NCBI GenBank assembly: GCA_039802205.1
Contig: JBDRWD010000007.1
Coordinates: forward strand, 2,433 to 66,432
Origin: a candidate division WOR-3 bacterium
Lineage (GTDB): Bacteria; Hydrothermota; Tepidihabitantia; SM23-42; JAOAFX01
Length of the DNA stretch: 64,000 nt
Direction of reading: 5' to 3'
Part shown: one piece after another, positions 162 through 30,290 of the stretch
How positions within the stretch are numbered: the stretch's first letter is position 1
Layout: every line of letters starts with the position of its first letter
The notes under the pieces: generated by a model
What the model saw: the letters and a program-made list of their open reading frames with translations, nothing else
Told to the model about the DNA's origin: nothing
The model's database searches: none
Translations under genes and position numbers: made by a program

Positions 162-1280
162 ATGAATATCGGCATTGACGCCAGCGTTTTAGAAAAGGGG
201 ATCACCGGGATAGGACGGTATTTGCTGGGGATTTTGAAATATTTGCCGCGCGTTGATAATAAAAATAGATATTTCTTATTTTCCTATAGAAAACCATTTC
301 CCGAAGGAGAATTTTACAAATCGATCGCCACCGGAAAATATCTCCCTTCAAAAATTTATGCCCCCTTCTGGCTTAACCTGATTTTGCCTTACTATTTAAA
401 ACGGTGTGAGATTGAAGTACTTTTTTCACCGAACCATCTCGCCCCTATTAATTTTTACCATCGCAATGGTTGGAAAAGCATTGTCACCATTCATGATGTT
501 GCCCACCGTGCCGCCGCTGCGTTTAAACCGCCTGTCTATCGCAATTATCTGGATTTTTTCCTTAAATGTGTTTTACCTGCCTGTTCACGCATTATTACGG
601 TTTCGGAATTTTCCAAGAAAGAGTTAGTGAAAAATTATCATCTGCCTCCCCATAAAATTTCGGTGATCTATGAATTTGCGGCGGAAATTTTTAAGCCTCG
701 AAAAATCAGCAAGGAAATGCGAGGGTATTTAGCCACGGTGTTAGCCATCCCCGAGGAGTTCATTCTTTATGTTGGGATAATTGAAAACCGAAAGAACATT
801 TCGGGAATTCTAAGGATTGCGGATATAATAAAAGCAAGAAATTTCAATATAAAAACATTGTTAGTGGGTCGACCGGGATTTGGTTTCAAACAAATCATTG
901 AGCAGATAGCTGCGCGCGAAAATGTGATATATCGTAATCATGTGGGTGATGAGTACCTGCCTTACCTATACAATATGGCAAAAGTATTTTTGTTTCCTTC
1001 TTTTTACGAAGGTTTTGGGTTACCTCCGCTGGAGGCGATGCAATCTGGGGTTCCGGTTCTGGCTTCCAATGCTGCCTCATTGCCAGAAGTAATCGGTGAA
1101 GGAGGAATTATGCGTGCCCCTGACGATTATGAAGGATTCGCAGATGATATAATCCGGCTGTTGGAAGACAAGGATTTTCATGCCCTGCTGAGCAAGAAAG
1201 GAATTGCCCGGGCAAAAAAGTTTAATCCGTATGAAATTGTCCAGTCGCTCGTTGCCATATTTAACACTCCGGAAGGCTAA
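162..1280 (+). CDS. glycosyltransferase family 1 (GT4-like)
   Basis: 372-aa ORF whose C-terminal region carries the GT1 signature [30 protein letters not shown]. Ends TAA. Confidence 0.85.
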
Positions 1281-1439
1281 TCGGAAAAAAATAAGATACT
1301 TTCTTGAAACCTTTTTGGTGTTTTGGTGATATACTTAAAAGTGTGGAAATTTTTCTTGAAATTAGAAGAAGAGGGTGTTTTTTTGACTTGACAAATGTAG
1401 ATAGATGGATATAATTTCTCACTAAAAAAGGAGGTTAAG

Positions 1440-2474
1440 TTGAAATTTAAAAAGGCAATAGCCCTGATGATATTTTGGGGAACATTATTAAATCTAATTT
1501 ATGCCGCCCCTCGGGTCGTGGTGGCAGAGATGATCGGTGACGAGACCTGAAGTTCCTGTGCGGCGGCAAGCGGTACGCTTGCGCAGATAGTATTAAACTA
1601 TCCAGGTCGGATTGCCGCTATTGATGTCCATGATAACCCAGCTGATTCATTCTTCCTTCAAGAAGCATACAATAGAATCCGCTATTATTTGCCCCCATTT
1701 TACGGCATGTATATGCATCCTTGGCTCTGGTATGATGGGAATCAACATGGAGGAATGGATTATTCTCAATGGGAATCTGTGATTATTAATCGCTTGAGCC
1801 AACCAGCACCGGTTACAATTTATCTCGATGGTGAATATTCGCCCGGAAGTAATTCTGGAACTATTTATGCGACATTTAAGAATGATTCAACCGCAACAAT
1901 CAATGGCCGGGTGATTTTTGTCATAACTGAAGATAGCCTATTTTATCCAGCACCCAATGGAGCATTATGGCATAGTAATGTGCCCAGGGATTATATTCCG
2001 GACCATAATGGCGTGCTTGTTTCAATTCCCCCTGGCGATTCAATAACGGTAACCATGCCTTTTACCACCCATCCCAACTGGAATAAATCGCATTGTAAGA
2101 TCAAAACCTGGATTCAAAACGATGTGATGTTACCGGATTCCACAAAAGAAATCTGGCAGGGTGCGATAGTTAATCTACTTGAACTCGGTATTGAAGAAAA
2201 TCCAGGCAAGAAGTGTGAAAAATTAAGTCTACAGGTTTTCCCCAACCCCTGTCCGCGCACCGATGCCCTGCACTTCTATTTTCCATATCCAACCGACTAC
2301 AAAATTTCAATATATGACTGTACCGGAAGGGAGATAAAGAATATTTCAGGTAATGCCAAATCGGTTAAATGGAATTTAAAAAACAACCAAGGGTATAAAG
2401 TTAAACCCGGTGTTTATTTTTACCGTTTTGTAGATAAAAAAATAATTTTTTCTGGTAAATGTGTAATTGAGTAG
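1440..2474 (+). CDS. secreted thioredoxin-fold protein with T9SS C-terminal sorting domain; in-frame TGA at 1548-1550 read as selenocysteine in a U-S-S-C (UxxC) motif
   Basis: TTG start at 1440 is preceded by AAGGAGG and gives the signal peptide LKFKKAIALMIFWGTLLNLIYAAP. The frame stays open across TGA 1548 into the tracked ORF 1689..2474 (same frame, no other stops). The context VVVAEMIGDET-U-SSCAAASGTLAQIVLNYPGRIAAIDVH has the beta-CxxC-alpha-beta thioredoxin layout. The C-terminus ..KPGVYFYRFVDKKIIFSGKCVIE is a Por/T9SS CTD. A paralog of 6860..7858 keeps the TGA at the equivalent position. Confidence 0.6.
1566..1582 (+). promoter_or_regulatory. putative bacterial SECIS hairpin (GCAAGC-GGUAC-GCUUGC) 15 nt downstream of UGA 1548
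   Basis: Perfect 6-bp stem with a 5-nt apical loop containing GU. The spacing from UGA is within the bacterial SECIS range. Confidence 0.5.
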
Positions 2475-2532
2475 AAGAAGGTTAAATACGAAAGACTCTA
2501 TTGGAAAATTGATTATGAGCAAAGGGGATATT

Positions 2533-4440
2533 ATGAAAATGTTGATTCCCATTTTTTTAATGATAGGTTTGGTTAGCGCTGGTAATTGGTTGGTTAATGG
2601 TGATTTTGAAGAAGCGCTTAACACCGGTTGGACTTCAACCCAGAGCGGCTCATATATCTACATTGACCGTGCAATAACCTATGAACCGGACCCGGATTAT
2701 GAAGTGCGGGTGGAAAAAGGCTCAGGCAATGGGTTTGCAACACTTTCTCAGACTATTGATATTACGACACCGAGTGAATTTACTTTTTCTACAAAGGCAA
2801 AGTTATATGCATATGATAATAATGCAGATACTCTGACTTACGCTGCCGCAGCAATAAGAATAGTTTACCGTAATGCCACGGGCGCACTTCTTGGAGAAAC
2901 CAGAATTTGCCAGTTCACAGCACCTTGTCCCTGGCAAAACACTTCAACAATCCATCTAATAACAGTTAGCGATTCACTCTGGCATAATTATTCATTCAAT
3001 CTCCAGACTGAACTTGGAAATCTTCCCGGCGTCAATCCAGCAAATGTGAAAAAGGTAGAAATTGCGCTCTATGATACAACTGCCCACACTTGTTGAGGGG
3101 CTTCACAATTGGCGAAGGTCTTCGCCGACGACATCAAACTAAATTATAACGGAACCCAGCTTTATCTCACCTTCATCAAAGCAAAAGTTTACGACTCGGG
3201 TGGCAATAACAATGGCCGGTTAGATCCAGGTGAAATCGCAAATATCACTGCATTATTAAAAAATATTGGCGGTGCTAATTTTACCAATCTGAATTCTACA
3301 CTCTCCACGAGCAGTCCTTATATCACTGTTACGGATAACTCGGGTTATTTTGGAACAATACTTATTGATAGCACCAAGGAGAATATTTCGGATCCTTATG
3401 TTGTGCAAGTGAGTCCCTCGACACCTCAAGGCCATATTGCTCAATTTCGTTTGATAGCAACTCAAGGTTCTTTTGTTGATACATTTTTCTTCAACTTGGT
3501 GGTTGGCACATATGATTATCTGGTCTGGAATCCAGATCCAACCCCCGGTTCCGGACAGACAATCCACAATTTATTAACATCCCTTGGCTACGCTGGCTTA
3601 TATTCAACTACCCTCCCGACTACTGAACTCAGCTTCTATCGCGCAATTCTGGTCTGTGTGGGTATCTATCCTAATAATTATATTATCGGTGCATCAAGCC
3701 CTGAGGCAACAGCACTCGTCAACTATGTCAATAGCGGTGGCAGACTCTATCTTGAAGGTGGAGATGTTTGGTATTATGACCCATTAACGGGCGGATATAA
3801 CTTCTGTCCATTATTTGGCATAAACGCAACTGAAGATGGTACGGACGATTTAGGTCCAATTCAAGGGCAACCAGGAACTTTCACCAATCAGATGTACTTC
3901 GGTTATGGTGGTGAGAATTCCTATATGGACCATATCAGCCCCAGTGGTACCGGAGCATTTTTGATCTTTAGAGATGTCGACCAAGGTTATGATTGTGCGG
4001 TAGCGCGTGATGCCGGGACATACCGAACTGTCGGGGCTTCTTTTGAACTTGGTTCTCTGGTTGATGGAAGTGGGGTTTCAACCCGAAGGGCATTGCTCGA
4101 TTCCATCCTCCATTTCTTCGGAATATTCCAGGTGCCTGTTGAAGAGAATAAGCAAGAAGGGCTCCAAAAGATATCTTTCCAGGTAATACCGAATCCATTC
4201 CAGAATAACTGCGTGGTTAAATTCGAAATTCGAAATCCGAAATCCGAAATTTCACTCAAGATTTTTGATGCAACAGGACGGTTGATAAAATCATTTAACC
4301 ATTTAACCAGTTACCAATTTAATAAAATCGTGTGGTCTGGTGACGATGAAATCGGCCGCAAGGTGCCCGCAGGTATTTATTTCGTGCGGTTGGAAACGGA
4401 TGGTCAAAAATATATTGAGAAGGTAATAAAGATAGAATAG
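2533..4440 (+). CDS. large secreted protein with T9SS C-terminal sorting domain; in-frame TGA at 3094-3096 (context TAHTC-U-GAS) joins tracked ORFs 2467..3096 and 3109..4440
   Basis: Both ORFs are in the same frame (coordinate mod 3 = 1). The N-terminal part has a signal peptide (MKMLIPIFLMIGLVSAG) but no CTD. The part after TGA has no signal peptide or ATG (its tracked start is TTG) but ends in a canonical T9SS CTD (..AGIYFVRLETDGQKYIEKVIKIE). The start codon is uncertain; ATG 2515 and ATG 2533 (after AAAGGGGA) are both possible. Confidence 0.5.
3109..3128 (+). promoter_or_regulatory. putative SECIS hairpin (uuGGCGAA-GGUC-UUCGCCga) 14 nt downstream of UGA 3094
   Basis: 6-8 bp stem with a GGUC loop. 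Confidence 0.45.
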
Positions 4441-4448
4441 TTAGAAAT

Positions 4449-4477
4449 CAGGAAGGGAGTATTTATGCTCCCTTCCT
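4449..4477 (+). terminator. Rho-independent terminator-like hairpin after the 2533..4440 gene
   Basis: AGGAAGGGAG-uauuuaug-CUCCCUUCCU, a 9-10 bp stem, followed by GAAAAUCUUUUA. Confidence 0.55.
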
Positions 4478-4520
4478 GAAAATCTTTTATAATGGGACTT
4501 GAGTCTAAAAAGGGGGTTTT

Positions 4521-6809
4521 ATGGGCAGTAAGAAACTTATCTGGATTGTTTTAATTGTCGCCACTGCATCATTTGCCCAGTGGCAGGCAATAGGTCCTTA
4601 TGGTGGCTATGTCCGCTCGGTGGTTGTATCACAAACCAATGACAATATTGTCTATGCCGCATCTTATGCCAATCCCACTGTAGTTGCAAAATCCACTAAT
4701 GGTGGTTCAACCTGGACCACAATGGGTGTAATTCCAAATCAGGCTTATTGTATGGCAATCGACCCAACGAATGATAACAAACTATATGCGGGAAGCGGAC
4801 ATGTAATATATCGTTCAACTGATGGTGGTGTCAATTGGTTATCAACTACTATGAGCAATAAATATATCTATGGCATAGCGGTCCATCCAACAGCACCTAC
4901 AACTATTTGCGCCTCGGGTATGAGCTATACTGGAACAAAATGGGGGCTTGCATTCTTCAAAAGCACGGATTCAGGTGTAAACTGGACAACCACAGTAATC
5001 GACACCTCAGGCTCTTCAAACTATGGATATTGTCTCGCAATTGACCGTACGAATCCCAATACGATTTATGTTGGTGGCTATTCTTATACCACATCTTACA
5101 TACCCAGAATTTACAAATCCACAAATGGAGGCACTAACTGGATAGATGTGTCTACTGATACAGTATTTCAGAACGCTTATTATATTTACTCTATGGCTGT
5201 TCATCCAACGAATTCTAACATAGTCTATGCTGGTACTTATTTAAAAGGTATTATGCGTTCTACTGATGGCGGAAATTCCTGGACAAAGGTTTCCAGCAAT
5301 TACTACAACTACAGTATGGCAACGAGCATAGCATCACCTGATATCGCTTACTCTGGTTGTTATGGTGAGGTTTACAAAACGACAAATGCCGGAGTGTCCT
5401 GGACATCGGTAAGTTCAGGTTTGAGTGGAACTTCCTTCTATGGCCTTGCCGCAAGTGCACAGAATGCTTCTAATGTATATGCTGGAAATAACAAAGGTAT
5501 GTTTAAGACAACAACCGGCGGGTCTTCCTGGGTAAGTATCAATAACAATTTGAATATGGGTTCAATCCTCTCTTTTGCCAACGCGCCTTCTTCACCTTCA
5601 ACAATCTATACTTCCTTTGCTGAAGTTGGTGTATTCAAAACCACGAATTCGGGAAGCGACTGGATTCAATTACCTACGCCGGTTGGTTGTGGCAATATTT
5701 GCGAATTTGCGGTTGCTTATAACAATCCTAATATCATATATGCCTTAGAAGGAAGTGGTTGAGGGAACGCCGAGCTCTACAAGAGCACAGACGGCGGGTC
5801 CGTCTGGTCAAATGCGTTAGATGCATTTTATGTCGATGGTGGTGCAATGGCAATCGATCCGAATAATAGCTCAGTCCTTTATACCGGCGGATACATATAC
5901 AACGGTTCAACTTATGTAATGGTAGTCTCAAAATCTACTGATGGTGGCACAACCTGGGAAAGGGATACGCTAACAACTGATTATTGTATGTGCTATGCAC
6001 TTGCTATAGACCGGAGTAATTCCAATGTTGTTTATGCCGGTGGCTATAATGGTTATCTCTTCAAGACTACCAACGGCGGTATTACCTGGACTCTCTCCAA
6101 TACAGGACTAAGTGGGACAGTTTATGATATAAAAATTGGCTCAACCAAGGCAAACACCGTTTATGCAGGGACTTCTTCTGGTGTTTACAAATCAACGAAT
6201 GCTGGTGCAAGCTGGACAAGTACCGGTCTATCAGCAAATGTCCAGGCAGTCTTGATAAATCCTTCAAATGAAAATGAAATATATGCCGCAACGAGTAATG
6301 GTATCTACAAGAGCACTACTGGCGGTGGTGGCTGGACATTGATGAATACTGGGCTATTAAATACAAATACAACTTCTTTAGGAATTTACCCAAATAACTG
6401 GTTGTTCTGCGGGACAAATGGCACAGGAATGTATCGATGGAATATACAAGTTGGCGCGGAAGAATTTGAGGAGATTGGGAAGAGTATCTCCTTGCAGATC
6501 ACACCGAATCCATTCAGGAACTACTGCGTAGTTAAATTCCAAATCCCAAGCACCAAATCCCGAATTCCAAACAAATCCGCAATCCGCAATCCGAAATCCG
6601 AAATTTCTTTGAGGATCTATGATATTTCGGGTCGCGTTGTTAAGTCATTTAATCTTGAATCCTGTATCCTGAATCATGAATCCAGTATCGCCTGGTCGGG
6701 TGACGATAAGATGGGTCGCAAGGTGCCTGCGGGTATCTACTTTGTGCAACTTGATTCTGGTGAGTTCACTAAAATTGAGAAAGTAATTCTACTTAAAGGA
6801 AATAATTAG
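4521..6809 (+). CDS. BNR/Asp-box repeat (sialidase-like beta-propeller) secreted protein with T9SS C-terminal sorting domain; in-frame TGA at 5760-5762 (context ALEGSG-U-GNAELYKSTDGG) joins tracked ORFs 4521..5762 and 5847..6809
   Basis: Both ORFs are in the same frame (mod 3 = 0). S-x-D-G-G-x-x-W Asp-box repeats continue straight across the TGA. The first part has a signal peptide (MGSKKLIWIVLIVATASFAQW). The second part lacks an RBS or start, and its first ATG is 84 nt downstream. It ends in a T9SS CTD (..AGIYFVQLDSGEFTKIEKVILLK). Confidence 0.45.
5788..5806 (+). promoter_or_regulatory. candidate SECIS hairpin (CAGACGG-CGGGU-CCGUCUG) 25 nt downstream of UGA 5760
   Basis: 7-bp perfect stem with GU in the apical loop. 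The spacing is longer than in the other three cases. Confidence 0.35.
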
Positions 6810-6859
6810 TTCTTGACATAAGCTAAAAAATAAGTAAAATTTTAGTGAAAGGGGGTTTT

Positions 6860-7858
6860 ATGTCAAAATACTTATTATTACTGCTGGGCATTTCACTGCT
6901 CGGTTTTTCTGCCCAGCGGGTGGTTTTGTGTGAAGAGTTCTATCAAGAGGGCTGACCATCCTGTCCTGCAGCCAGCAGTACGCTGGACAATATCTGTGTT
7001 CAATATTCCACGCGCATTGCTGCGATTGAGATGCATCTTTCCAGCAGTTATCCGCTGTACTGTCCTGAAGCATATGCCCGGATGCAATACTACCCAAGTT
7101 CAAACTGGTATACGCCCAATCTTATCCTTGATGGCACACCAAGAGGAAGCAGTTATAGCTCCTGGCAATCATACATTGTTACACGGATGAATCAACCTGC
7201 ACCGATGCGTATCTCAATGTGGGGGACTTATGGCTCTGGTTCTGGCACAATCTATGCCCGATTCCGTAATGATTCAACTGCCTCAGTTACTGCCTATGTC
7301 TATTTTGTTATTACTGAAGATAGCCTCTATTATGTTACTCCATACGGTGACCAGTGGCATAATCATGTTGCACGCGATTATGTCCCAAACCAAATCGGCC
7401 AACAAGTGACAATTCCAGCGGGTGATTCAGTAACAGTCTCGCAAAATTTCACAATCCAATCAGGCTGGAATGTCAATCGCTGCAACATTGTAACCTGGAT
7501 ACAGAATAATTCCACACGCGAAGTGTATCAGGCAGCATTTATCAAAGTAACGGACTTGACAGGAGTTGAAGAAACGAATAAGGCAACTGGAATATCAACA
7601 ATTTCCTCCATTCCCAATCCTTGCGTCAATGGTACAACATTCCAGTTTAATGTTAGTAAAGATGGTAAATGGAAACTTTTGCTATATGACGCCTTGGGTC
7701 GCGAGATTCAGCGATTTGAAGGAATCGGTCAGGGTGGTATTCAGACTGTCGAATGGAATCTTTTTGACAATAATAACCATCGGGTAAAACCGGGTGTTTA
7801 CTTCTACCAGCTCCTCGGTCCGGACTTGAAGGCAAACGGCAAGATCGTGGTAAGGTAA
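6860..7858 (+). CDS. secreted thioredoxin-fold protein with T9SS C-terminal sorting domain; in-frame TGA at 6953-6955 read as selenocysteine in a U-P-S-C (UxxC) motif; paralog of 1440..2474
   Basis: ATG 6860 after AAAGGGGG gives the signal peptide MSKYLLLLLGISLLGFSAQ. The frame is open across TGA 6953 into tracked ORF 7031..7858 (same frame, mod 3 = 2). The context VVLCEEFYQEG-U-PSCPAASSTLDNICVQYSTRIAAIEMH aligns with the paralog VVVAEMIGDET-U-SSCAAASGTLAQIV..RIAAIDVH. The CTD is ..KPGVYFYQLLGPDLKANGKIVVR. Confidence 0.6.
6972..6986 (+). promoter_or_regulatory. putative SECIS hairpin (CCAGC-AGUAC-GCUGG) 16 nt downstream of UGA 6953
   Basis: 5-bp stem with an AGUAC loop. Relative to the paralog hairpin (GCAAGC/GCUUGC, loop GGUAC) the stem has compensatory changes while the loop keeps GUAC. 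Confidence 0.5.
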
Positions 7859-7888
7859 ATCCCAGGAAAAACTTTAAACCCAAGACCA

Positions 7889-7920
7889 GAGAGGCGTGGT
7901 GCTAACCGCGCCTCTCTGCT
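7889..7920 (+). terminator. terminator-like hairpin after 6860..7858
   Basis: AGAGAGGCG-(12 nt loop)-CGCCUCUCU, a 9-bp stem. The tail is not strongly U-rich. Confidence 0.35.
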
Positions 7921-8111
7921 GTATTCTACCCACCTACGAAGCGGGGTTATTTTATCTGTAGAGGCATTGAAAAATTTTATCATTGAATTAAGAGTCTCCT
8001 GTTCAGGCTAAATTGTAAAATCTAAACAAATTGCTGATATCCTCTGACTTTAAAACCCATTTTCGTAAGAGTTCTAAGCCCGCTTTTAGGAGGCTTCTTC
8101 TTTTAATATCC

Positions 8112-8195
8112 TCAAATTTTTTCTGCTATGTGCCATTTTTGGTTGTGTTTTTCCCAAGCCTTTCTAACTGCTTTTGATTGTTTCTTATTTTTCAT
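8112..8195 (-). CDS. possible small basic protein (27 aa, MKNKKQSKAVRKAWEKHNQKWHIAEKI)
   Basis: A strong RBS AAAGGAGAT sits 5 nt upstream of ATG in an otherwise empty 530-bp intergenic gap. It is below the ORF-track size cutoff and there is no homology evidence. Confidence 0.25.
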   Translation of the reverse strand: MKNKKQSKAVRKAWEKHNQKWHIAEKI

Positions 8196-8390
8196 TTTCT
8201 ATCTCCTTTCGTCCTCGAGTCCTTGCCGATCCATCTATGATAGTGTAACAAGTTTTCTACATTTTTGGTGATATGGCAAATTAGAATGTTAAATTCACGA
8301 AGTTTGTCGTATTCTCACAACACTCGTCTATTTGAAAATAGGTCTTATTCGCAAATACAATTTTTCAGAGGCTATATTCATAAACTTCTC

Positions 8391-8801
8391 TCATTCTAAT
8401 TTTTCGCCACAATTCCAGCAATATATCGCATCTCCTGGAACATCTTTTTTACAATTACTACAAGTAAAATCTGATTTCTTCTCCACATTGCTCAAGTCCT
8501 TGTTGCACATATTGCAGATTTTTTTATTGGTTTTTGTACCACAGTATGGGCAAAATTTTATATTTGAAGTCTGTTGAGGTAAATCTTCTTTTTCTTTGAC
8601 TTTCTTTTCAGGAGTGTTTATATCACCCGCAATCGTTTGGCGACCACAAACAAATAATATGCCTAATAATATTCCAACTATGGGACTAAAGAGGACGCTG
8701 TTCCAAAAGCCTTTTGAATACGAAAGACCCACATTTTTCCATGCATTAGCAACAACAAGACATAGTAGCAACCAAAGTAAAATAATTATAAGAATTAACA
8801 T
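8391..8801 (-). CDS. membrane protein with C-terminal double zinc-ribbon (CPYCG..CNMC, CSNC..CWNCG)
   Basis: 136-aa ORF with two N-terminal TM helices and a Cys4 x2 C-terminus. Confidence 0.55.
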   Translation of the reverse strand: MLILIIILLWLLLCLVVANAWKNVGLSYSKGFWNSVLFSPIVGILLGILFVCGRQTIAGDINTPEKKVKEKEDLPQQTSNIKFCPYCGTKTNKKICNMCNKDLSNVEKKSDFTCSNCKKDVPGDAIYCWNCGEKLE

Positions 8802-8829
8802 ACAAAATTGTATATATAATTTAATAAAA

Positions 8830-8835
8830 AGTCAA
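8830..8835 (-). promoter_or_regulatory. candidate -35 box (TTGACT) for 8391..8801 at the gene-proximal edge of repeat copy A
   Basis: GGCTCAGACC-N9-TTGACT arrangement is shared with copy B. Confidence 0.3.
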
Positions 8836-8840
8836 GGTGG

Positions 8841-9130
8841 AAAGGGTCTGAGCCTTCTCTACTTTTTGTCAAATTATTTTTATGCGCTGGATTATTAGGG
8901 GTAGCCGCGCCCTTCAGGGTGCGAGATATTCTGGGATGTAAAAAGATTTATCCGCAGGCTAAAGCCTGCGCCTACCATTTTACCGGTTACCACCCAAGGA
9001 CTTCAGGTTGGCTTTTTTATTTAAGCAAGGCTAAAGCCTTGCCCTACAAAAATCCCAACGCTAAATTATTGATGACCCTTTCAAATCTTGCCCATGGGTT
9101 TTATCGTTCCTTCATAAGATATAAAAATAT
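8841..9130. repeat. structured intergenic repeat element, copy A (second copy at 51731..51935)
   Basis: Roughly 80-90% identity to copy B over ~200 nt (GGTCTGAGCC..AAATTATTTTTATGCGC..GGTAGCCGCrCCCTTCAGGGTGCGArAT..ATTTATCCGCAGGCTAAAGCCTGC..CCCTACAAAAATCCCAAC..TTGCCCATG..TTTTATCGT). Copy A carries an extra ~70-nt inserted hairpin module (CAAGGC-UAAA-GCCUUG). Confidence 0.65.
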
Positions 9131-9286
9131 GGAGAGAACTCAGTTTAGAAATCGGGTTGTTTAATAAAAATAGAATATCTTATCCAGATAATTAAAATGT
9201 GATATACTATATCCAAAAAGTGTCTATGATCACAATAGCCATTCCTGGGGAGGTATACATTAGAGGAGCCAAAAGAGAAACGCAAA

Positions 9287-9311
9287 CCTAAAGGTTTGCC
9301 CTACATTGTAA
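9287..9311 (-). terminator. Rho-independent terminator downstream of msrB
   Basis: On the minus strand: GCAAACC-UUUA-GGUUUGC followed by GUUUCUCUUUUGG. It shares the UAAA/UUUA-loop hairpin module of the repeat family. Confidence 0.5.
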
Positions 9312-9323
9312 AATTACCTAATT

Positions 9324-9698
9324 TTAATCCGGCACGAAAATCAGAGAAATTGAGTTTACACAATGGCGGACATTCTTTTCGGTGAAGCCTTCGCCTTCAA
9401 AGACATGGCCTAAATGGGCACCGCAGTTTGCACACTGTATCTCAATCCTGATACCATCAGGGTCTGGAACTCTTTTCACCGCACCCTTTATCTCTTCATC
9501 AAAACTGGGCCAGCCGCACCCGGATTTGAATTTTGCCTCAGAGCGATAAAGCGGTGCATTACATCTTTTGCAATGATAAGTGCCCTTTTGAAAAAAATCA
9601 TTGTATTCACCGCTGAATGGCGGCTCTGTCCCTTTATGAATGATTACCCATTCTTCGGCTCTGGTGAGTTTTCGGAATTTTTTATTTGTGTTGTCCAT
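9324..9698 (-). CDS. msrB: peptide-methionine (R)-S-oxide reductase MsrB
   Basis: Two CxxC zinc pairs (CKRC.., CANCG) and the catalytic RHCVNS motif. This is the Cys form, not Sec. Confidence 0.9.
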   Translation of the reverse strand: MDNTNKKFRKLTRAEEWVIIHKGTEPPFSGEYNDFFQKGTYHCKRCNAPLYRSEAKFKSGCGWPSFDEEIKGAVKRVPDPDGIRIEIQCANCGAHLGHVFEGEGFTEKNVRHCVNSISLIFVPD

Positions 9699-9838: not shown

Positions 9839-12800
9839 TCAATCCTTCACTCTTTCAGGCATACAGGTCTTAGAGACACGACACAGGATATCATCAATTA
9901 TTGTGTAAACAACCGGAATGAGAATGAGTGATACAAAGATACTGAAGGTCATACCGCCAATGAATGCACTTGCCAGTGCCTTTAATGATTCGCCACCACC
10001 ACCGATATTTAAGGCAAGGAACAGAGAGCCGAAGATTGTGGTCAATGAGGTCATCATCACTGGACGGAATCGCTTTTCACCTGCCTCAATTATCGCCTTG
10101 TTTCTTTCTACATTCTTTTCTCTTCGTGATACAACATAATCAAGCAAGAGTATCGCATTATCCGTTACGATTCCAGAAAGAATGATTGCCGATAAGAAAG
10201 AAGACAGATTTAATTCATTGCCCGTGAGCACGAGTCCAGCAAAAAATCCGGTTATGGAAAATGGCACAGAGAGGATTATTACAAAGGGCAAGGTCAGGCT
10301 ATTGAATTGGACACCCATCACCATATACACCAGAATTATTGCAATGATAAGGGCAATACCAAGTGTCTTGAAACTCTCGGCAATCGCCCGATTTGCCCCT
10401 CGCTGTTCAATATTGTATCCATCAGGCAGTTTGAATTCATTTATTATCCATTCAACAATTTTACGATTCTCACGGGCATTCGTGCCCGGTGCAAAACTAC
10501 CGGTAATGTTTACCGAACGTCTTTGATTTATCCGCACAATCTCGGATGGTGATTCACCTTCCTGAAGCACGCCCAGACTTTTGAGCGGCACAACCCCTGC
10601 CAGGGGTGTCGCAACCGGCAGGTTGGCAATGTCACGGAGGGTGAATTTTTCCGCATTAGCAATAACAAGTTCCACATCAATATCCTTATCATCCTTGCGA
10701 TAGGTGGTAACGACCTCACCGGATTTGGCAATCCGCAATGTCTGGGCAAGGGCAAATGCTGAAATCCCTGTAGCAGAAAGTCTCATTCGGTCCGGAATAA
10801 ATACGAATGCGGGCAAACCCCGAGCCAGATTACTCTTTATATATAAAAAGTTTTTCTCGCTTCGCAATGCAGAAGCAAGACGGCTACCAAGTTCACGCAG
10901 GGTATCAAGGTTATCACCGAAGATATTTATATCAATATCCTCGCGCCTCACGCCGACCGTAGCATCAATCACCCGCACAACAAATGTTGGTTCGGTAAAT
11001 GATTCAAGAATTTTTTTGGCATCCGCCATAACTTCACGCACCGGCCTTTTCTTTTCGGTATAGACATTTATTGTAGCACTATACGGTTGGGGCGTACCGA
11101 AGAATGGGTCTTCTCCAACGATGGAAGAGACCTTTGCTACACCATTCAAATTCAACAATGCCTTCTCTAATTTCATTACTTCATTGTTACAATGTTCTAA
11201 TGAAGTTCCACGGGGATATTCAAGGACGATCTGAAACTCACCTTCATCAGTGGCGGCAATCAGACCGGTCTTCACAAAACTGGCAAGAATAAAGCCAATG
11301 ACCAGTAAAAAGACAAATATGAAAACCGTAATCAAACGGTGTCTTAAAACCTTTTCCAGAAGATTTTTATATCCATTTCTCATCATCGTTTCCAGATTCA
11401 AAAACCAGCGGTTAAACTGAAATTTTGGCGGTTCGGGTTTCAATAAGAAATAACTCAATATCGGGACAATTGTTACTGCAATGATGATTGAAATGCTCAA
11501 TGAGAATACAACGGTCAGGGCAAGTTCGCCGAGCAAAACCTTGGCAAATCCCTGGGTAAAAGCAAGGGGTAAAAATACGACTATCGTCGTAATGACACCG
11601 GCGCTTATTGCCAGACCTACTTCCCGTGTTGATTCCACAACCATTTCTAATTTTGAACCGGAAAAATCTTTATCCCGCAAATGCCGGAAGATATTCTCCA
11701 TCACCACGATTGAGGCATCTACAATCAAACCAGTAGCAAGGGATAATCCACCAATAGAGATCGTATTGAGCGAAAGATTGAAGACCTTCATAAAGATAAA
11801 GGTGATTATGATAGTAATCGGGATTGATATCACAATGACGAGGGTGTTTCTAATCCTGCCTAAAAATAAAAGTATCACGAGCGATGCCAGCAATGCACCT
11901 AAAATGCCCGAAATGACCACATCTTTAAGGGCATTAAGAATTACATTGGATTCGTCTTTGATGACCTGAATCTTTATATCCGAAGGCAATTTATCTTTAT
12001 TTTCTTTGAGCCATTTTTTCACTCCCTGCGCAACCTGGACTGAATTGCCATTGCTCGGTTTGCGCACCAGGATTCCTACCGCATTATTTAGATTCAAACG
12101 AGCAAAACGCGTCTGCAATTTTTCAATACTATAAACCTTTGCAATATCACCAATCCTGATCGTCCTGCCGCCGGCAACCGTGATGTATTCATTCTTGATA
12201 TCTTCTATGGATTGATAACTTCCTTTCAGACGTAATGAAAATACATGCTGACCACTCTTTATTTCACCGATTGGAAAATCAATGTTACCACTGCTTAAGG
12301 CGAGGGCAATCTGATTTAAGCCGATACCGGTTTCGTATAAACGGAGTGGGTCAATTTCAACACGAATCACTTCATCTATTCCGCCGGTGACCTTGGCATT
12401 TGCGACACCGGGCAGACGAGCAATTGCCGGCGCAATCCTTTTTTCTACAAATCTTTTCAAATCGGCAAGGTCCCTGGTTTCAGATGTAATAGAAAGTTCA
12501 ACCGGTGGTGGAAGAATGTTACTTATCGTCGTGATTGAAGGAGTTGTGGCATTCCTGGGCAATTGTCCTTTTATGAGGTCAATCTTTTCCTGGAGTTCAC
12601 GCTGTTTTTTTTCTATATTCACACCGAACGCATAATTTACAATGATCTGTGAAAAACCTTCTCGGCTCGTGGAGTTGATCTGCTCAATGCCGGAGATAGT
12701 TGAAATCGCTTCTTCAATTGGTTTGGTCAGTTCATTCTCAACAACTTCTGGACTCGCACCAGGATAGGCAGTAATGATTATTGCGGCTGGAACCGAAAAT

Positions 12801-12916
12801 TCTGGATAATAGGAAACCGGCAGGGAAAAGAAACTGATAAAACCAATAATTATTAAGACCCCGGTTATTAAAAGGGTTCCCACATACCTCTGGATAAAAA
12901 AGCGAATCACATTCAT
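9839..12916 (-). CDS. RND multidrug efflux transporter, AcrB/HAE1 family (inner membrane pump)
   Basis: 1025 aa with 12-TM RND architecture. Ends TGA. Confidence 0.9.
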   Translation of the reverse strand: MNVIRFFIQRYVGTLLITGVLIIIGFISFFSLPVSYYPEFSVPAAIIITAYPGASPEVVENELTKPIEEAISTISGIEQINSTSREGFSQIIVNYAFGVNIEKKQRELQEKIDLIKGQLPRNATTPSITTISNILPPPVELSITSETRDLADLKRFVEKRIAPAIARLPGVANAKVTGGIDEVIRVEIDPLRLYETGIGLNQIALALSSGNIDFPIGEIKSGQHVFSLRLKGSYQSIEDIKNEYITVAGGRTIRIGDIAKVYSIEKLQTRFARLNLNNAVGILVRKPSNGNSVQVAQGVKKWLKENKDKLPSDIKIQVIKDESNVILNALKDVVISGILGALLASLVILLFLGRIRNTLVIVISIPITIIITFIFMKVFNLSLNTISIGGLSLATGLIVDASIVVMENIFRHLRDKDFSGSKLEMVVESTREVGLAISAGVITTIVVFLPLAFTQGFAKVLLGELALTVVFSLSISIIIAVTIVPILSYFLLKPEPPKFQFNRWFLNLETMMRNGYKNLLEKVLRHRLITVFIFVFLLVIGFILASFVKTGLIAATDEGEFQIVLEYPRGTSLEHCNNEVMKLEKALLNLNGVAKVSSIVGEDPFFGTPQPYSATINVYTEKKRPVREVMADAKKILESFTEPTFVVRVIDATVGVRREDIDINIFGDNLDTLRELGSRLASALRSEKNFLYIKSNLARGLPAFVFIPDRMRLSATGISAFALAQTLRIAKSGEVVTTYRKDDKDIDVELVIANAEKFTLRDIANLPVATPLAGVVPLKSLGVLQEGESPSEIVRINQRRSVNITGSFAPGTNARENRKIVEWIINEFKLPDGYNIEQRGANRAIAESFKTLGIALIIAIILVYMVMGVQFNSLTLPFVIILSVPFSITGFFAGLVLTGNELNLSSFLSAIILSGIVTDNAILLLDYVVSRREKNVERNKAIIEAGEKRFRPVMMTSLTTIFGSLFLALNIGGGGESLKALASAFIGGMTFSIFVSLILIPVVYTIIDDILCRVSKTCMPERVKD

Positions 12917-12917
12917 A

Positions 12918-13787: not shown

Positions 13788-13788
13788 A

Positions 13789-17735: not shown

Positions 17736-17757
17736 AATAATACCTCCTTAAATTTTA

Positions 17758-18282: not shown

Positions 18283-18302
18283 TCTTTCACCCCCACCTTA
18301 AT

Positions 18303-18490: not shown

Positions 18491-18502
18491 TTAAAAGCGA
18501 TT

Positions 18503-23245: not shown

Positions 23246-23312
23246 AATCTTCTCCTTTCTACCCCTTTTTAATCCTCCCCCTTCAAAGGGGAAAGATTTT
23301 TGAGGGATGAAA

Positions 23313-29164: not shown

Positions 29165-30290
29165 TCAACTATTGAATGATTTTTTTGCTAACATCTTGAG
29201 ATAGGCATAGATAAAATCGTCGATCTCCCCATCCATGACCCGCTCAATCTGAGTGGTTTCATAACCGGTCCGGTGGTCCTTTACCAGTTTATAAGGGTGA
29301 AAAATGTAAGAACGGATCTGATGTCCCCAGGCAATCTCGGTCTTTTGTGCTTCCAATTTATTCAATTTTTCTTCCTCAAGACGTTTGTAGTAATCGTAAA
29401 GACGGGCTTTCAAGATTTTCAGGGCGGTCATCTTATTTAAATACTGAGAACGTTCATTCTGACATTGCACGGTGATACCAGTAGGAAGATGGGTGATGCG
29501 GACTGCGGAAGAGACTTTATTCACATTCTGCCCTCCATGACCCCCAGCACGGAAGGTGTCAATTTTTAAATCATCTTCTTTTATTTCAAAACTCACTTCT
29601 TCTACTTCCGGATAGACAAAGACCGAAGCAAATGAGGTGTGTCGTTTCTGGTTGGCATCAAAAGGGGATATCCTGACCAGGCGATGGATTCCGGTCTCAG
29701 CTTTCAATAATCCGTAGGCGTATTTACCATGAATTTCAATCGTGGCATCCTTTATTCCAGCAACCTCACCCGGTAAGAGATCAATTATCCGGTAAGTGAA
29801 TTTTTTTGTCTGGAGATAACGGGTGTACATCCGAAACAACATCTCTGCCCAGTCGCAGGACTCTGTCCCACCTGCTCCCGGATGGATGGTGAGCAAGCAA
29901 TTTTTGGTATCATCTTCACCTCCTAATAATAACTGGATCTCTAAATCTTTGATCTTTTGTTCAATCGCTTTTAATTCCTGCTCGGCATCCTTGAGCAGTT
30001 CATCATCCTCTCCAGTAGCGAGTTCGAGGAGTTCATTTAAAAATGTCAAACCGTTTTCAATTTCCTTTAGCCGTGCCAAATATTCCTGTTTCTGATCAAT
30101 CTCTGCCATTATCTGCTGGGCACGTTCTTTGTTTGCCCAGAAGGTGGGTTGATTGGTTTCTTCCTGGAGTTTCTTTAATTGATTGGCGATACGATCGGGG
30201 TCAAAGATACTCCTTCAGGCTTTCGTATTTCTTTTTCAATTCCTTTACTTCATTGATGGTGATAGAGATGTATTTACCAGATTTTTTCAT
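29165..30290 (-). CDS. prfB: peptide chain release factor 2, with programmed +1 ribosomal frameshift at CUU UGA C (UGA = plus 30201-30203)
   Basis: ORF0 from ATG 30288-30290 encodes [29 protein letters not shown], then UGA. The sequence AAGGAGUAUCUUUGAC is the canonical RF2 shift site with an internal SD. The +1 frame continues in frame with tracked ORF 29165..30109, which carries [12 protein letters not shown] and the RF2-specific region. Confidence 0.9.

What the first reader, a model, noticed from the sequence alone, without database searches (positions are those of the whole stretch)
1440..7858. Cluster of four T9SS-sorted secreted proteins, each interrupted by one in-frame TGA followed by a SECIS-like hairpin - candidate secreted selenoprotein locus
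Seen directly: four consecutive plus-strand genes each contain exactly one in-frame TGA (1548, 3094, 5760, 6953), and none contains TAA or TAG. In every case the reading frame is open on both sides of the TGA.

The upstream part of each gene has the signal peptide. The downstream part has no RBS or ATG but ends in a Por/T9SS C-terminal sorting domain. A mature secreted protein is only made if the TGA is decoded.

A perfect 5-7 bp hairpin with GU in its apical loop lies 14-25 nt downstream of each TGA: GCAAGC-GGUAC-GCUUGC, GGCGAA-GGUC-UUCGCC, CAGACGG-CGGGU-CCGUCUG and CCAGC-AGUAC-GCUGG. This is the geometry of bacterial SECIS elements.

The two paralogs (1440..2474 and 6860..7858) differ substantially in DNA sequence. 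They nevertheless keep the TGA at the same alignment column inside a thioredoxin-like beta-UxxC-alpha-beta motif (U-S-S-C and U-P-S-C). Their hairpins show compensatory stem changes while the loop keeps GUAC.

TGA is a normal stop elsewhere in the window, for example ATGA overlaps at 13787-13791 and 16854-16857. That argues against genetic code 4 or 25.

Extracellular, T9SS-exported selenoproteins with a Sec in a Trx-like redox motif would be very unusual.
Basis: partly seen in the sequence, partly recalled or inferred. Interest (0 to 1): 0.88.

Follow-up and report, generated by a model that had tools for sequence, protein, structure and literature searches.

The report
Cluster of four secreted selenoprotein genes
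Four neighbouring genes for exported surface proteins in an uncultured WOR-3 bacterium each almost certainly use a UGA "stop" codon to insert selenocysteine; one family was already known as a selenoprotein, and the other two are absent from the two catalogues I checked.

Summary

**Conservation of the TGA**
- All four + strand genes have one in-frame TGA.
- The same TGA column recurs in about 80 Omp28-like copies, 31 gene-2 relatives and 10 gene-3 relatives from independent WOR-3/Stahlbacteria assemblies.
- Coding constraint holds on both sides of the TGA.

**Hairpins**
- Single-sequence folding energies are unremarkable.
- For the Omp28-like and gene-2 families the downstream hairpins show compensatory base changes, with an invariant loop G or GGUC.
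- The gene-3 hairpin is conserved and is missing from a non-TGA paralogue.

**UGA is a genuine stop elsewhere**
- About half of the window's genes end in TGA.
- The window carries prfB (RF2) with its classic CUU-UGA-C frameshift site.

**Sec machinery**
- selA, selB, selD and tRNA-Sec are not in the window.
- In related genomes they lie directly beside these same gene families.

**Novelty**
- Genes 1 and 4 are distant relatives of the known "Omp28-related selenoprotein" (GOS_C, NF045500), with U replacing the first Cys of CxxC.
- Gene 2 (C-U motif) and gene 3 (GSGUG, double β-propeller) match no listed selenoprotein family.
- Unusually, neither has a Cys counterpart in its non-Sec homologues.
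- No selenium incorporation has been measured.

The parts
1388..1415 (+). Promoter-like site in front of gene 1: TTGACA, 16 nt spacer, TATAAT (12 of 12 matches).
   Evidence: Consensus scan. This is a pattern match only.
1440..2474 (+). Gene 1. An Omp28-like thioredoxin-fold protein with a signal peptide, a U-S-S-C motif and a T9SS C-terminal domain (aa 266-343, roughly 2235-2471).
   Evidence: Translation. PF11551 scores 34.1 bits, just under its 34.9 cut-off; TIGR04183 33.3 bits; NF045500 37.3 bits. The TGA column is conserved in homologues.
1548..1550 (+). Gene 1 in-frame TGA, the proposed Sec codon. It aligns with the first Cys of CxxC.
1566..1582 (+). Gene 1 SECIS-like hairpin, GCAAGCG-GUA-CGCUUGC, starting 15 nt after the TGA.
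   Evidence: Family covariation on 76 sequences. This copy carries the compensated A-U pair (C-G in most copies).
2533..4440 (+). Gene 2. It has a signal peptide, then a roughly 190-aa N-terminal domain with an 'NGDFE...GW...ADD' pattern (weak CBM_4_9 hit) that carries the C-U-G motif. A β-sandwich, an α/β domain and a T9SS C-terminal domain (roughly 4183-4431) follow.
   Evidence: AlphaFold model of homologue P0400, (C-terminal parts only). The TGA is conserved in 31 homologues. 87 of 150 cluster representatives end at this column.
3094..3096 (+). Gene 2 in-frame TGA, the proposed Sec codon, directly after Cys187.
3111..3126 (+). Gene 2 SECIS-like hairpin, GGCGAA-GGUC-UUCGCC, starting 14 nt after the TGA.
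   Evidence: The six core pairs are 100% paired in 29 sequences, four pairs show double changes, and the GGUC loop is invariant.
4448..4479 (+). Terminator-like hairpin after gene 2.
   Evidence: Pattern match only.
4521..6809 (+). Gene 3. A signal peptide, a BNR/Asp-box double β-propeller (GH74-like or PorZ-like fold in a homologue) with a GSG-U-G motif, and a T9SS C-terminal domain (roughly 6504-6788).
   Evidence: AlphaFold model of homologue P0122, pLDDT 86.7. Foldseek TM 0.58-0.60 to GH74 structures.
5760..5762 (+). Gene 3 in-frame TGA, the proposed Sec codon.
   Evidence: Conserved in close orthologues and in homologues of 37-44% identity.
5788..5806 (+). Gene 3 SECIS-like hairpin, CAGACGG-CGGGU-CCGUCUG, starting 25 nt after the TGA. 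It overlaps the Asp-box T-D-G-G-S-V-W. A smaller hairpin lies at 5774-5786.
   Evidence: It is conserved wherever the TGA is present and absent from the non-TGA paralogue in L069. No compensatory double changes were seen.
6813..6840 (+). Promoter-like site in front of gene 4 (11 of 12 matches).
   Evidence: Pattern match only.
6860..7858 (+). Gene 4. An Omp28-like thioredoxin-fold protein with a signal peptide, a U-P-S-C motif and a T9SS C-terminal domain (roughly 7613-7852). It is a paralogue of gene 1.
   Evidence: PF11551 55.8 bits, NF033782 75.3, NF045500 61.7, TIGR04183 36.4. None of the 120 best of 347 homologues covers more than 90% of the query, so all appear to start after the TGA.
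6953..6955 (+). Gene 4 in-frame TGA, the proposed Sec codon.
6972..6986 (+). Gene 4 SECIS-like hairpin, CCAGC-AGUAC-GCUGG. It is a 5-bp version of the family's 6-7 bp stem.
   Evidence: It is weak in isolation.
7887..7918 (+). Terminator-like hairpin after gene 4.
   Evidence: Pattern match only.
29165..30289 (-). Internal control, not part of the cluster. prfB (release factor 2) with its programmed +1 frameshift site AGGAG-UAU-CUU-UGA-C (TGA at 30203-30201).
   Evidence: TIGR00020 455.7 bits against a cut-off of 370, matching profile positions 48-353. Sequence read.

Best explanation
This is a locus of four selenoprotein genes from three protein families, in a candidate division WOR-3 bacterium.

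**Proposed decoding (inferred).** In each mRNA a hairpin 14-25 nt downstream of one UGA acts as a bacterial SECIS element. SelB carrying GTP and Sec-tRNA(Sec) binds the hairpin as the ribosome arrives, and UGA is read as selenocysteine instead of being read by RF2.

**Proposed export (inferred).** The full-length products start with a signal peptide and end in a type-A T9SS sorting domain. They would therefore cross the inner membrane through the Sec translocon and the outer membrane through the type IX secretion system, to the cell surface or the medium.

**What each protein is.**
- Genes 1 and 4 are Omp28-like thioredoxin-fold proteins in which Sec replaces the first Cys of CxxC (UxxC). They are most likely extracytoplasmic thiol/selenol-disulfide oxidoreductases.
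- Gene 2 carries a vicinal Cys-Sec next to the last β-strand of a jelly-roll-like N-terminal domain.
- Gene 3 carries Sec in a GSG-U-G turn of a blade of a double β-propeller. It lies close in sequence to a CGxxC motif that occurs only in the Sec forms.
- For genes 2 and 3 I infer a surface-exposed selenenylsulfide or soft-metal/chalcogen-binding site. That function is a guess.

**Status of each step.**
- Shown: the conserved UGA, coding constraint on both sides, the hairpin (with covariation in two of the three families), UGA being a stop elsewhere, and the presence and linkage of Sec machinery in relatives.
- Inferred: actual Sec insertion, export by T9SS, and the chemistry.
For: 1. **One in-frame TGA per gene.** The frame is open on both sides.
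2. **The TGA column is conserved.**
   - All but one of about 80 Omp28-like copies in 61 genome loci keep it, giving 94 sites in 63 sources.
   - All 31 gene-2 relatives in the loci keep it. 87 of 150 cluster representatives from 1.84 billion proteins end at that column.
   - For gene 3, four close orthologues keep it. Five more N-terminal fragments of 37-44% identity end at the same column. I checked four of those, plus a further paralogue in L069, as TGA followed by open frame.
3. **Third-codon-position changes dominate on both sides of the TGA.** About 45-53% of third positions differ, against 6-23% of first and second positions.
4. **Hairpin covariation.**
   - Omp28 family: 91.9% of cells paired; covariation 0.227 against 0.118 in shuffles (0 of 500 reach it); pair types UA 45/CG 26 and GC 51/AU 12; the first loop G is invariant.
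   - Gene-2 family: the core 6 bp are always paired, four pairs show double changes, and the GGUC loop is invariant. The compensations even change amino acids (AKVF, ARVL, AEVS).
5. **The gene-3 hairpin tracks the TGA.** It is present with every TGA copy. It is absent from the adjacent non-TGA paralogue in the same contig.
6. **The U of genes 1 and 4 aligns with the first Cys of CxxC** in a Cys-form relative (L035, TWCPYC). Both genes hit the NCBIfam model 'Omp28-related selenoprotein', which is the published UxxC family GOS_C.
7. **Sec machinery in relatives.**
   - tRNA-Sec in L011, L031, L038 and L056.
   - selA at 550 and 440 bits and selB at 353 and 334 bits, all above cut-off, in L011 and L056. 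Both are also in L012 and L043.
   - A selD that itself contains a TGA at the Cys17 position, in L017.
   - All of these lie within about 6 kb of Omp28-like TGA genes.
   - L011 and L012 come from the same MAGs as the syntenic clusters L006 and L005.
8. **UGA is otherwise a stop.** About half of the window's ORFs end in TGA. prfB and its UGA frameshift site are present.
Against: - No selA, selB, selD or tRNA-Sec lies in the 64-kb window. I could not search the rest of this MAG.
- There is no experimental evidence of selenium incorporation.
- For genes 2 and 3 the non-TGA homologues carry A, P, G, E, I or L, or a gap, at the U column, never Cys. This is atypical for selenoproteins. One syntenic orthologue of gene 3 has GGA (Gly), although that copy also has a frameshift.
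- All hairpins overlap conserved peptide motifs (ASGTL, AKVFADD, TDGGSVW). Part of their conservation is therefore protein-level.
- The gene-3 hairpin shows no compensatory double changes.
- Single-sequence folding energies are not exceptional.
- Rfam has no matching family.
Confidence: 0.87

Rival explanations
1. SECIS-independent read-through. The hairpin merely slows termination, and a standard amino acid (Trp, Cys or Arg from a near-cognate tRNA) is inserted at UGA. The proteins would be full-length but contain no selenium.
For: Genes 2 and 3 have no Cys counterpart at the UGA column. One orthologue tolerates Gly there. No Sec genes were seen in the window.
Against: - selA, selB, tRNA-Sec and selD are repeatedly adjacent to these families.
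- U replaces the redox Cys of CxxC in genes 1 and 4.
- The loop G or GGUC is invariant and the hairpin sits at a fixed distance, as expected for a protein-binding site and not for a mere roadblock.
- The 'W' in homologue P0400 is a gene-caller artefact; the DNA is TGA.
Confidence: 0.06
2. The TGAs are genuine stops. Each 'gene' would be two products, or only a short N-terminal product, with the downstream part translated separately or not at all.
For: Public annotation calls them as separate or truncated ORFs.
Against: - There is no start codon with a ribosome-binding site after the TGAs.
- The downstream parts lack signal peptides but carry secretion domains.
- Each TGA falls inside a domain: the CxxC of a Trx fold, just before the last β-strand, or inside a propeller blade.
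- Uninterrupted homologues exist (L035, P0122-P0124, P0264).
- Both sides are under in-frame constraint.
Confidence: 0.04
3. The genetic code is altered, with UGA read as Trp (code 4) or Gly (code 25) throughout the genome.
For: JGI's gene caller translated one homologue with UGA as Trp. One orthologue has GGA at the gene-3 site.
Against: - Only 4 in-frame TGAs occur in about 49 ORFs and 19,700 codons.
- About half of the ORFs end in TGA.
- prfB is present and uses UGA in its autoregulatory frameshift site.
Confidence: 0.01
4. The TGAs are pseudogene mutations or assembly and sequencing errors.
For: None beyond the bare presence of stops.
Against: The same column is TGA in dozens of independent assemblies from different studies. 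A second deposit of this genome is identical across the cluster. Purifying selection acts on both sides.
Confidence: 0.01

Closest known systems
Omp28-related selenoprotein (NCBIfam NF045500), the 'hypothetical protein GOS_C' of Zhang & Gladyshev 2008 (PMC2398784), listed in the 2026 compendium (PMC13188914)
   Same: - Omp28-type thioredoxin-like fold.
- Sec in a UxxC motif where ordinary family members have CxxC.
- A SECIS-like hairpin just downstream.
- Genes 1 and 4 both hit the model.
   Different: - The scores (37 and 62 bits) are far below the 200-bit cut-off, so genes 1 and 4 belong to a separate, distant branch.
- GOS_C came from marine surface metagenomes, whereas these genes come from WOR-3/Stahlbacteria.
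- I could not check whether GOS_C proteins carry a T9SS sorting domain, or whether the U column is strictly the same.
The E. coli fdhF/fdnG type of bacterial SECIS with SelB-dependent UGA recoding (own knowledge; general description in PMC13188914 and PMC1802603)
   Same: - A hairpin inside the coding sequence immediately 3' of the UGA.
- Conserved G (and U) in the apical loop.
- The gene-2 loop GGUC is, as I recall, the same as the fdhF apical loop.
- selA, selB, selD and tRNA-Sec are present in the lineage.
   Different: - The stems here are short (5-8 bp) and differ between families.
- No binding or reporter data exist.
- Rfam has no model that detects them.
Other extracytoplasmic bacterial selenoproteins in the 2026 compendium: DsbA-like, DsbG-like, thiol:disulfide interchange protein, TonB-dependent receptor of the FCYXU type, MtrB/PioB-family outer-membrane protein, selenobacteriocin
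   Same: Sec-containing proteins that leave the cytoplasm. Several have Trx-like UxxC or CxxU motifs.
   Different: None is described as T9SS cargo. None resembles the gene-2 jelly-roll-like domain or the gene-3 BNR double propeller. The open-access library held no paper linking selenoproteins with T9SS, WOR-3 or Omp28.
Vicinal Cys-Sec ('CU') selenoproteins: the mammalian thioredoxin reductase GCUG tail (own knowledge) and the bacterial CU-motif metal-binding proteins SaoL, HgcA, MbdU and SaoC
   Same: Gene 2 has Cys immediately before Sec (T-C-U-G; in relatives G-C-U-S or N-C-U-G). This dyad is compatible with a selenenylsulfide or with soft-metal binding.
   Different: There is no sequence homology. 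The motif sits in a loop of a secreted β-rich domain, not a flexible C-terminal tail or a known metal-binding fold. Some relatives have G-U or D-U instead of C-U.
GH74 xyloglucanases and PorZ (double seven-bladed β-propellers)
   Same: The AlphaFold model of gene-3 homologue P0122 superposes on GH74 structures (TM 0.56-0.60) and, less well, on PorZ (TM 0.51). BNR/Asp-box repeats are present.
   Different: Only 14-20% identity. The catalytic Asp pair could not be mapped, because the HMMER alignments slip between repeats. No known member of these folds contains Sec.

Membership tests
Bacterial SelB/SECIS-dependent selenoprotein gene | In-frame UGA conserved at the same alignment column in homologues, with the reading frame continuing | tested here: met
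   Omp28-like: all but one of about 80 copies. Gene 2: 31 of 31 in the loci, and 87 of 150 cluster representatives end there. Gene 3: 10 copies, down to 37-44% identity.
Bacterial SelB/SECIS-dependent selenoprotein gene | Protein-coding constraint in the same frame on both sides of the UGA | tested here: met
   Third-position differences are about 45-53%, against 6-23% at positions 1 and 2, both upstream and downstream.
Bacterial SelB/SECIS-dependent selenoprotein gene | Stem-loop within roughly 11-37 nt 3' of the UGA with conserved G in the apical loop, supported by covariation | tested here: met
   Met for the Omp28-like family and the gene-2 family. For gene 3 the result is inconclusive. 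That hairpin is conserved with the TGA and absent from a non-TGA paralogue, but shows no compensatory double changes.
Bacterial SelB/SECIS-dependent selenoprotein gene | selA, selB, selD and tRNA-Sec in the same genome | not testable with these tools
   They are absent from the 64-kb window, and the rest of this MAG could not be fetched. In relatives, selA, selB and tRNA-Sec lie in L011 and L056; selA and selB in L012 and L043; and selD in L017 of the same complete chromosome as L043.
Bacterial SelB/SECIS-dependent selenoprotein gene | Homologues with Cys at the Sec column | tested here: not met
   Met only for genes 1 and 4 (L035 TWCPYC). Not met for gene 2, where 14 read-through representatives have E, G, P, I, A or a gap. 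Not met for gene 3, which has P, L, P and G. This is a customary criterion rather than a mechanistic requirement.
Bacterial SelB/SECIS-dependent selenoprotein gene | Selenium actually incorporated (75Se labelling or mass spectrometry) | not testable with these tools
   The organism is uncultured and I had no proteomic data.
NF045500 Omp28-related selenoprotein (GOS_C) | Score at or above the curated cut-off (200 bits) | tested here: not met
   Gene 1 scores 37.3 bits and gene 4 scores 61.7 bits. They are related but not members of this equivalog.
NF045500 Omp28-related selenoprotein (GOS_C) | Trx-like Omp28 domain with a UxxC motif | tested here: met
   U-S-S-C and U-P-S-C. PF11551 scores 55.8 bits for gene 4, above its cut-off, and 34.1 bits for gene 1, just below 34.9.
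T9SS cargo protein (type A C-terminal sorting domain) | C-terminal domain reaching the TIGR04183 cut-off (23 bits) | tested here: met
   33.3, 41.6, 25.8 and 36.4 bits for genes 1-4.
T9SS cargo protein (type A C-terminal sorting domain) | N-terminal Sec-type signal peptide and T9SS machinery in the genome | not tested
   Hydrophobic N-termini are visible in the translations, but I ran no signal-peptide predictor and did not look for T9SS core genes.
GH74-like double β-propeller (gene 3) | Two seven-bladed propellers plus the catalytic Asp pair | tested here: inconclusive
   The fold is met for homologue P0122. The catalytic residues could not be aligned reliably.
Genetic code 4 or 25 organism | Loss of RF2 and frequent in-frame UGA | tested here: not met
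   prfB is present with its UGA frameshift site. Only four in-frame TGAs occur in the window.

The most novel reading that the evidence does not exclude

- **Components.** Multiple Omp28-like UxxC oxidoreductases, together with two previously unlisted selenoprotein families: a lectin-like C-U protein and a GSGUG double-propeller protein.
- **Unusual feature.** In those two families Sec has no cysteine counterpart in any homologue. This is one reason the usual 'Cys-homologue' discovery pipelines could have missed them.
- **Genomic linkage.** The genes form islands that are physically linked to selA-selB-tRNA-Sec.
- **Possible role.** The set could act as an extracellular redox or chalcogen/metal-handling module.
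Probability: 0.4. Interest if true: 0.8.

Novelty: new member of a known kind. Interest (0 to 1): 0.68.

Why it matters
**Scale of the mis-annotation.** If these genes are what they appear to be, public annotation splits or truncates hundreds of surface proteins in a whole candidate phylum:
- 347 hits for gene 4.
- 184 clusters at 50% identity for the gene-2 domain.

**New families.** Two selenoprotein families would be added to the roughly 119 now listed.

**A blind spot in discovery pipelines.** Neither new family has a Cys homologue at the Sec position. The standard discovery pipelines require such homologues (PMC2398784, methods). Families of this type may therefore be systematically overlooked.

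**Biology worth testing.**
- Selenocysteine on T9SS cargo places selenium chemistry outside the cell, which is an oxidising setting where Sec could outperform Cys.
- The repeated linkage to selA-selB-tRNA-Sec suggests these surface proteins are a main reason the lineage keeps the Sec trait.
- This gives a concrete target for metaproteomics and for heterologous SECIS reporter tests.

Tried and rejected
- **Single-sequence folding.** Folding the 60 nt after each TGA gave z-scores of only -1.7 to 0.0. It does not discriminate, so I relied on covariation.
- **Rfam.** At gathering and at E ≤ 10 there was no SECIS-type match, only chance hits.
- **Structure of the read-through proteins.** I modelled homologues instead.
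  - P0122 gave a good model.
  - P0400 gave pLDDT below 50 for the whole Sec-bearing N-terminal domain, so there is no structural context for gene 2's C-U.
- **GH74 catalytic residues.** Mapping them by profile search failed because the alignments slip between BNR repeats.
- **'Trp at the U column' in P0400.** Rejected. The DNA is TGA and the gene caller used another code.
- **More conserved TGA families.** A search of the 70 fetched loci found only the three families plus alternative-frame shadows.
- **Sec genes in the window.** tblastn found none. The selD query was my recollection of E. coli SelD; it still found a clear homologue in L017.
- **Literature.** Searches for selenoprotein with WOR-3, Omp28 or T9SS returned nothing relevant.
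- **Pfam for the gene-2 N-domain.** Only a sub-threshold CBM_4_9 hit, 16.8 bits.
- **Rest of the window.** I left 34243-63827 unscanned against family libraries. I only read the translations by eye and ran the tblastn for sel genes.

Full report
**1. The observation**

I translated the four + strand genes: 1440-2474, 2533-4440, 4521-6809 and 6860-7858.
- Each has exactly one internal stop, always TGA, at 1548, 3094, 5760 and 6953.
- The frame stays open on both sides.
- Each starts behind a Shine-Dalgarno-like site with a hydrophobic leader.
- Each ends in a domain that reaches the curated cut-off of the T9SS type-A sorting model TIGR04183 (33.3, 41.6, 25.8 and 36.4 bits against 23).
- A six-frame scan for TGAs with open frame on both sides found no other credible case in the 64 kb.

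The four hairpins are at 1566-1582, 3111-3126, 5788-5806 and 6972-6986. Taken alone they are not remarkable. The 60 nt after each TGA fold with z-scores of -1.7, -0.9, -1.4 and 0.0 against shuffles, and the gene 4 stem is only 5 bp. Rfam finds nothing there.

**2. UGA is a normal stop in this genome**

- About half of the roughly 49 long ORFs in the window end in TGA.
- The window encodes release factor 2 at 29165-30109, minus strand. It scores 455.7 bits on TIGR00020 against a cut-off of 370, starting at profile position 48.
- Upstream of it is the classic autoregulatory +1 frameshift site AGGAG-UAU-CUU-UGA-C.

An organism that keeps RF2 and regulates it through a UGA reads UGA as stop. Codes 4 and 25 are excluded.

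**3. Source**

- The part of gene 4 after the TGA is 100% identical to a protein of an NCBI MAG labelled candidate division WOR-3.
- The contig is JBDRWC010000002.1 of GCA_039802165.1.
- From window position 1383 onward that record differs from the window at only 5 positions in 16.4 kb, none of them in the four genes.

A second deposit therefore has the same four TGAs.

**4. Genes 1 and 4 (Omp28-like)**

*Family assignment.* Both match Pfam Omp28. Both also match, well below cut-off, the NCBIfam model NF045500 'Omp28-related selenoprotein' (37 and 62 bits against 200).

*Truncated database homologues.* Gene 4 has 347 database homologues. None of the 120 listed covers more than 90% of the query, consistent with their starting after the TGA column.

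*Genome loci.* A scan of species-representative genomes returned 61 loci, all WOR-3 or Candidatus Stahlbacteria and including three complete chromosomes.
- Walking upstream in frame, every copy but one has TGA at the same column, in the context E-x-U-x-x-C.
- A later all-against-all count gave 94 such sites in 63 sources.
- The single exception (L035) reads T-W-C-P-Y-C, the canonical CxxC. U therefore replaces the first redox Cys.

*Hairpin.* Fifteen nt after the TGA lies the consensus GCCAGYR-GNN-YRCUGGC. Results on 76 distinct sequences:

| Measure | Value |
|---|---|
| Cells paired | 91.9% |
| Covariation score | 0.227, against 0.118 in shuffles (0 of 500 reach it) |
| Cells paired with the partner slid by 1-3 columns | 17-38% |
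| Pair 27-33 | UA 45 / CG 26 |
| Pair 28-32 | GC 51 / AU 12 |
| Pair 24-36 | CG 73 / AU 2 |
| First loop base | invariant G |

Pair 27-33 couples the synonymous third positions of a Ser codon and a Thr codon, which is RNA-level selection. Gene 1 in the window carries the compensated A-U version of pair 24-36.

**5. Gene 2**

*Domains.* Only the T9SS domain is recognised by Pfam and NCBIfam. There is also a sub-threshold CBM_4_9 hit on the N-terminal 'NGDFE...GW' domain.

*TGA conservation.*
- Thirty-one relatives in the fetched loci all have TGA at the same column, mostly as C-U-G or C-U-S.
- An exhaustive HMMER search of 1.84 billion cluster representatives with the 187 residues before the TGA found 184 clusters.
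- Of the best 150, 87 end within 8 residues of the U column. Only 14 read through, and these carry E, G, P, I, A or a gap there, never Cys.
- One JGI homologue showed Trp at the column, but its DNA is TGA, so the gene caller had used another code.

*Hairpin.* The hairpin is GGCGAA-GGUC-UUCGCC, starting 14 nt after the TGA. In 29 sequences its six core pairs are always paired, four pairs show changes on both sides, and the GGUC loop is invariant. The compensations change the encoded peptide in step (AKVF, ARVL, AEVS). This points to an RNA constraint, not a protein one.

**6. Gene 3**

*Fold.* This is a BNR/Asp-box protein (Sortilin-Vps10 104 bits, F510_1955 glycosylhydrolase 199 bits). An AlphaFold model of the 42%-identical homologue P0122 (pLDDT 86.7) is an all-β double propeller. 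It superposes on GH74 xyloglucanases (TM 0.56-0.60) and, less well, on PorZ (TM 0.51).

*TGA conservation.*
- The TGA is kept in four orthologues of 74-82% identity.
- Five database fragments of 37-44% identity all end in ...EG[SGT]G.
- For the four I fetched, the next codon is TGA. The frame then continues with G-N-A-E-L-Y-x-S-T-D-G-G-S-V-W. In L064 it continues through to an Ig-like FlgD_ig C-terminal domain.

*Hairpin.* The hairpin CAGACGG-CGGGU-CCGUCUG overlaps the Asp-box. It is kept with only G·U or loop changes, so it shows no true covariation. In contig L069 a TGA form with the hairpin sits beside a non-TGA paralogue (CCG, Pro) that has no hairpin at that place.

*Non-TGA homologues.*
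- Full-length non-TGA homologues carry P, L or P at the column.
- One syntenic orthologue (L066) has GGA with the hairpin intact, but also a frameshift upstream.
- A C-G-x-x-C motif 20-24 residues before U is present in most of the TGA forms inspected. P0230 and the L069 paralogue appear to keep only one of the two Cys. The motif is replaced by D-A-G-V-D in the non-TGA forms.
- From the secondary structure of the model, both the motif and U lie in loops and strands of one blade.

**7. Coding constraint**

I compared the window with orthologues in L003 and L004. Third codon positions differ at about 45-53% of sites. Positions 1 and 2 differ at 6-23% of sites. This holds both upstream and downstream of the TGA in genes 2 and 3, and downstream in genes 1 and 4, whose upstream parts are signal peptides.

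**8. Sec machinery**

The window has none. The fetched loci, chosen only for encoding Omp28-like proteins, do contain it:

| Component | Loci | Evidence |
|---|---|---|
| tRNA-Sec (anticodon UCA) | L011, L031, L038, L056 | |
| selA, above cut-off | L011 (550 bits), L056 (440 bits) | |
| selB, above cut-off | L011 (353 bits), L056 (334 bits) | |
| selA and selB by tblastn | L012, L043 | |
| selD homologue with its own TGA at the E. coli Cys17 position (C-A-G-U-A-S-K) | L017 | |

- L017 and L043 come from the same complete chromosome (CP070834).
- L011 and L012 belong to the same MAGs as L006 and L005, which carry the syntenic four-gene cluster at about 72-78% identity.
- In L056 the order is selA, selB, tRNA-Sec, Omp28-like U gene, then two gene-2-type U genes.
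- Seven of 61 loci hold a Sec-machinery gene. My rough estimate of the chance expectation for 10-kb samples of 2.4-Mb genomes is under one.
- Gene-2-type genes lie next to Omp28-like U genes in 24 of the 61 loci.

**9. Interpretation**

The simplest account of all this is classical bacterial Sec decoding of three families of T9SS cargo.
- For genes 1 and 4 the chemistry is conventional: a UxxC thioredoxin fold.
- For genes 2 and 3 the absence of any Cys counterpart means Sec is an addition in a loop next to conserved Cys residues, not a 'better Cys'. I propose a surface selenenylsulfide or a soft-metal/chalcogen site, with low confidence.
- The rivals are altered code, errors, true stops and Sec-independent read-through. 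Each is contradicted by several independent results. Only the last needs an experiment to exclude.

**10. What is known**

- The 2026 compendium of 119 prokaryotic selenoprotein families lists NF045500 as 'hypothetical protein GOS_C', motif UxxC. It was first reported from the GOS metagenomes as a Trx-like-fold protein.
- The compendium lists nothing resembling gene 2 or gene 3.
- NCBIfam release 20 has no selenoprotein model that hits them.
- No paper in the library combines selenoproteins with WOR-3, Omp28 or T9SS.
- The published discovery procedure requires Cys-containing homologues. That requirement could explain why families 2 and 3 were missed.

**11. Verdict**

This is a real and ancient selenoprotein locus.
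- One family is a distant branch of a known selenoprotein family.
- Two appear to be unlisted families with an unusual evolutionary signature.
- The mechanism itself is the known one.

Noticed in passing
window 29165-30289 (- strand); TGA at 30203-30201: prfB (RF2) is split into a short frame-0 ORF and the main ORF by the canonical programmed +1 frameshift site AGGAG-UAU-CUU-UGA-C.
   Followed up: yes
window 4219-4251, 6534-6604, 6651-6683: Heptanucleotide tandem repeats lie inside the T9SS-domain coding parts of genes 2 and 3: AAATTCG x4.7, AAATCCC/G about x10, and AATCCTG x4.7. They encode an 'IRNPKSEIS'-like insert that is absent from the orthologue P0121. The period is not a multiple of three, so copy-number slippage would shift the frame of the sorting domain.
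   Followed up: partly
window 1218-1382, against L068 (JBDRWC010000002.1): The NCBI contig that otherwise matches the window (5 SNPs in 16.4 kb) diverges completely over its last 165 bases, upstream of window position 1383, where that contig ends. The window therefore comes from another assembly or strain of the same population.
   Followed up: partly
L070:642 (JGI 3300021514): The database protein P0400 shows Trp at the Sec column, but the DNA is TGA. The source's gene caller evidently used a UGA=Trp code. This is a trap when looking for non-Sec homologues.
   Followed up: yes
L066/L067, gene at 7202-9467: In a syntenic four-gene cluster the gene-3 orthologue has GGA (Gly) instead of TGA, with the downstream hairpin unchanged, and a frameshift about 150 codons upstream. 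It could be a decaying copy or a recent Sec-to-Gly escape.
   Followed up: partly
L069 3699-5900 and 6001-8229: A TGA form (with hairpin) and a non-TGA paralogue (CCG, no hairpin) of the gene-3 family lie side by side in one contig.
   Followed up: yes
L017 10717-11739 (- strand; CP070834.1): The selD of a complete WOR-3 chromosome itself has an in-frame TGA at the position of E. coli Cys17 (C-A-G-U-A-S-K). It lies about 4 kb from an Omp28-like TGA gene.
   Followed up: partly
L035 about 1826: The only Cys-form (TWCPYC) Omp28-like gene found still has a 6-bp hairpin at about the SECIS position, with no G in its loop. It may be a relic or chance.
   Followed up: no
window 9324-9698 (- strand): A methionine-R-sulfoxide reductase gene (MsrB, 212.6 bits) lies 1.5 kb downstream of the cluster. 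It has no in-frame TGA.
   Followed up: no
window 21338-23398 (- strand) and tRNA-Leu 23312-23395: Another T9SS cargo gene (FG-GAP-like, with an M6i-like match) has no TGA. The longest ORF runs into the tRNA-Leu gene, so its true start must be further downstream.
   Followed up: no
window 1388-1415, 6813-6840, 4448-4479, 7887-7918: A perfect sigma-70-type promoter consensus precedes gene 1, and an 11-of-12 match precedes gene 4. Strong terminator-like hairpins follow genes 2 and 4. This suggests transcription units 1-2, 3 and 4.
   Followed up: no
window 9839-19768 (- strand): There are two large RND-type efflux pump genes with membrane-fusion and outer-membrane-factor genes, and a TetR-family regulator at 19842-20429. 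The pump genes were identified by eye and from the precomputed Pfam labels.
   Followed up: no
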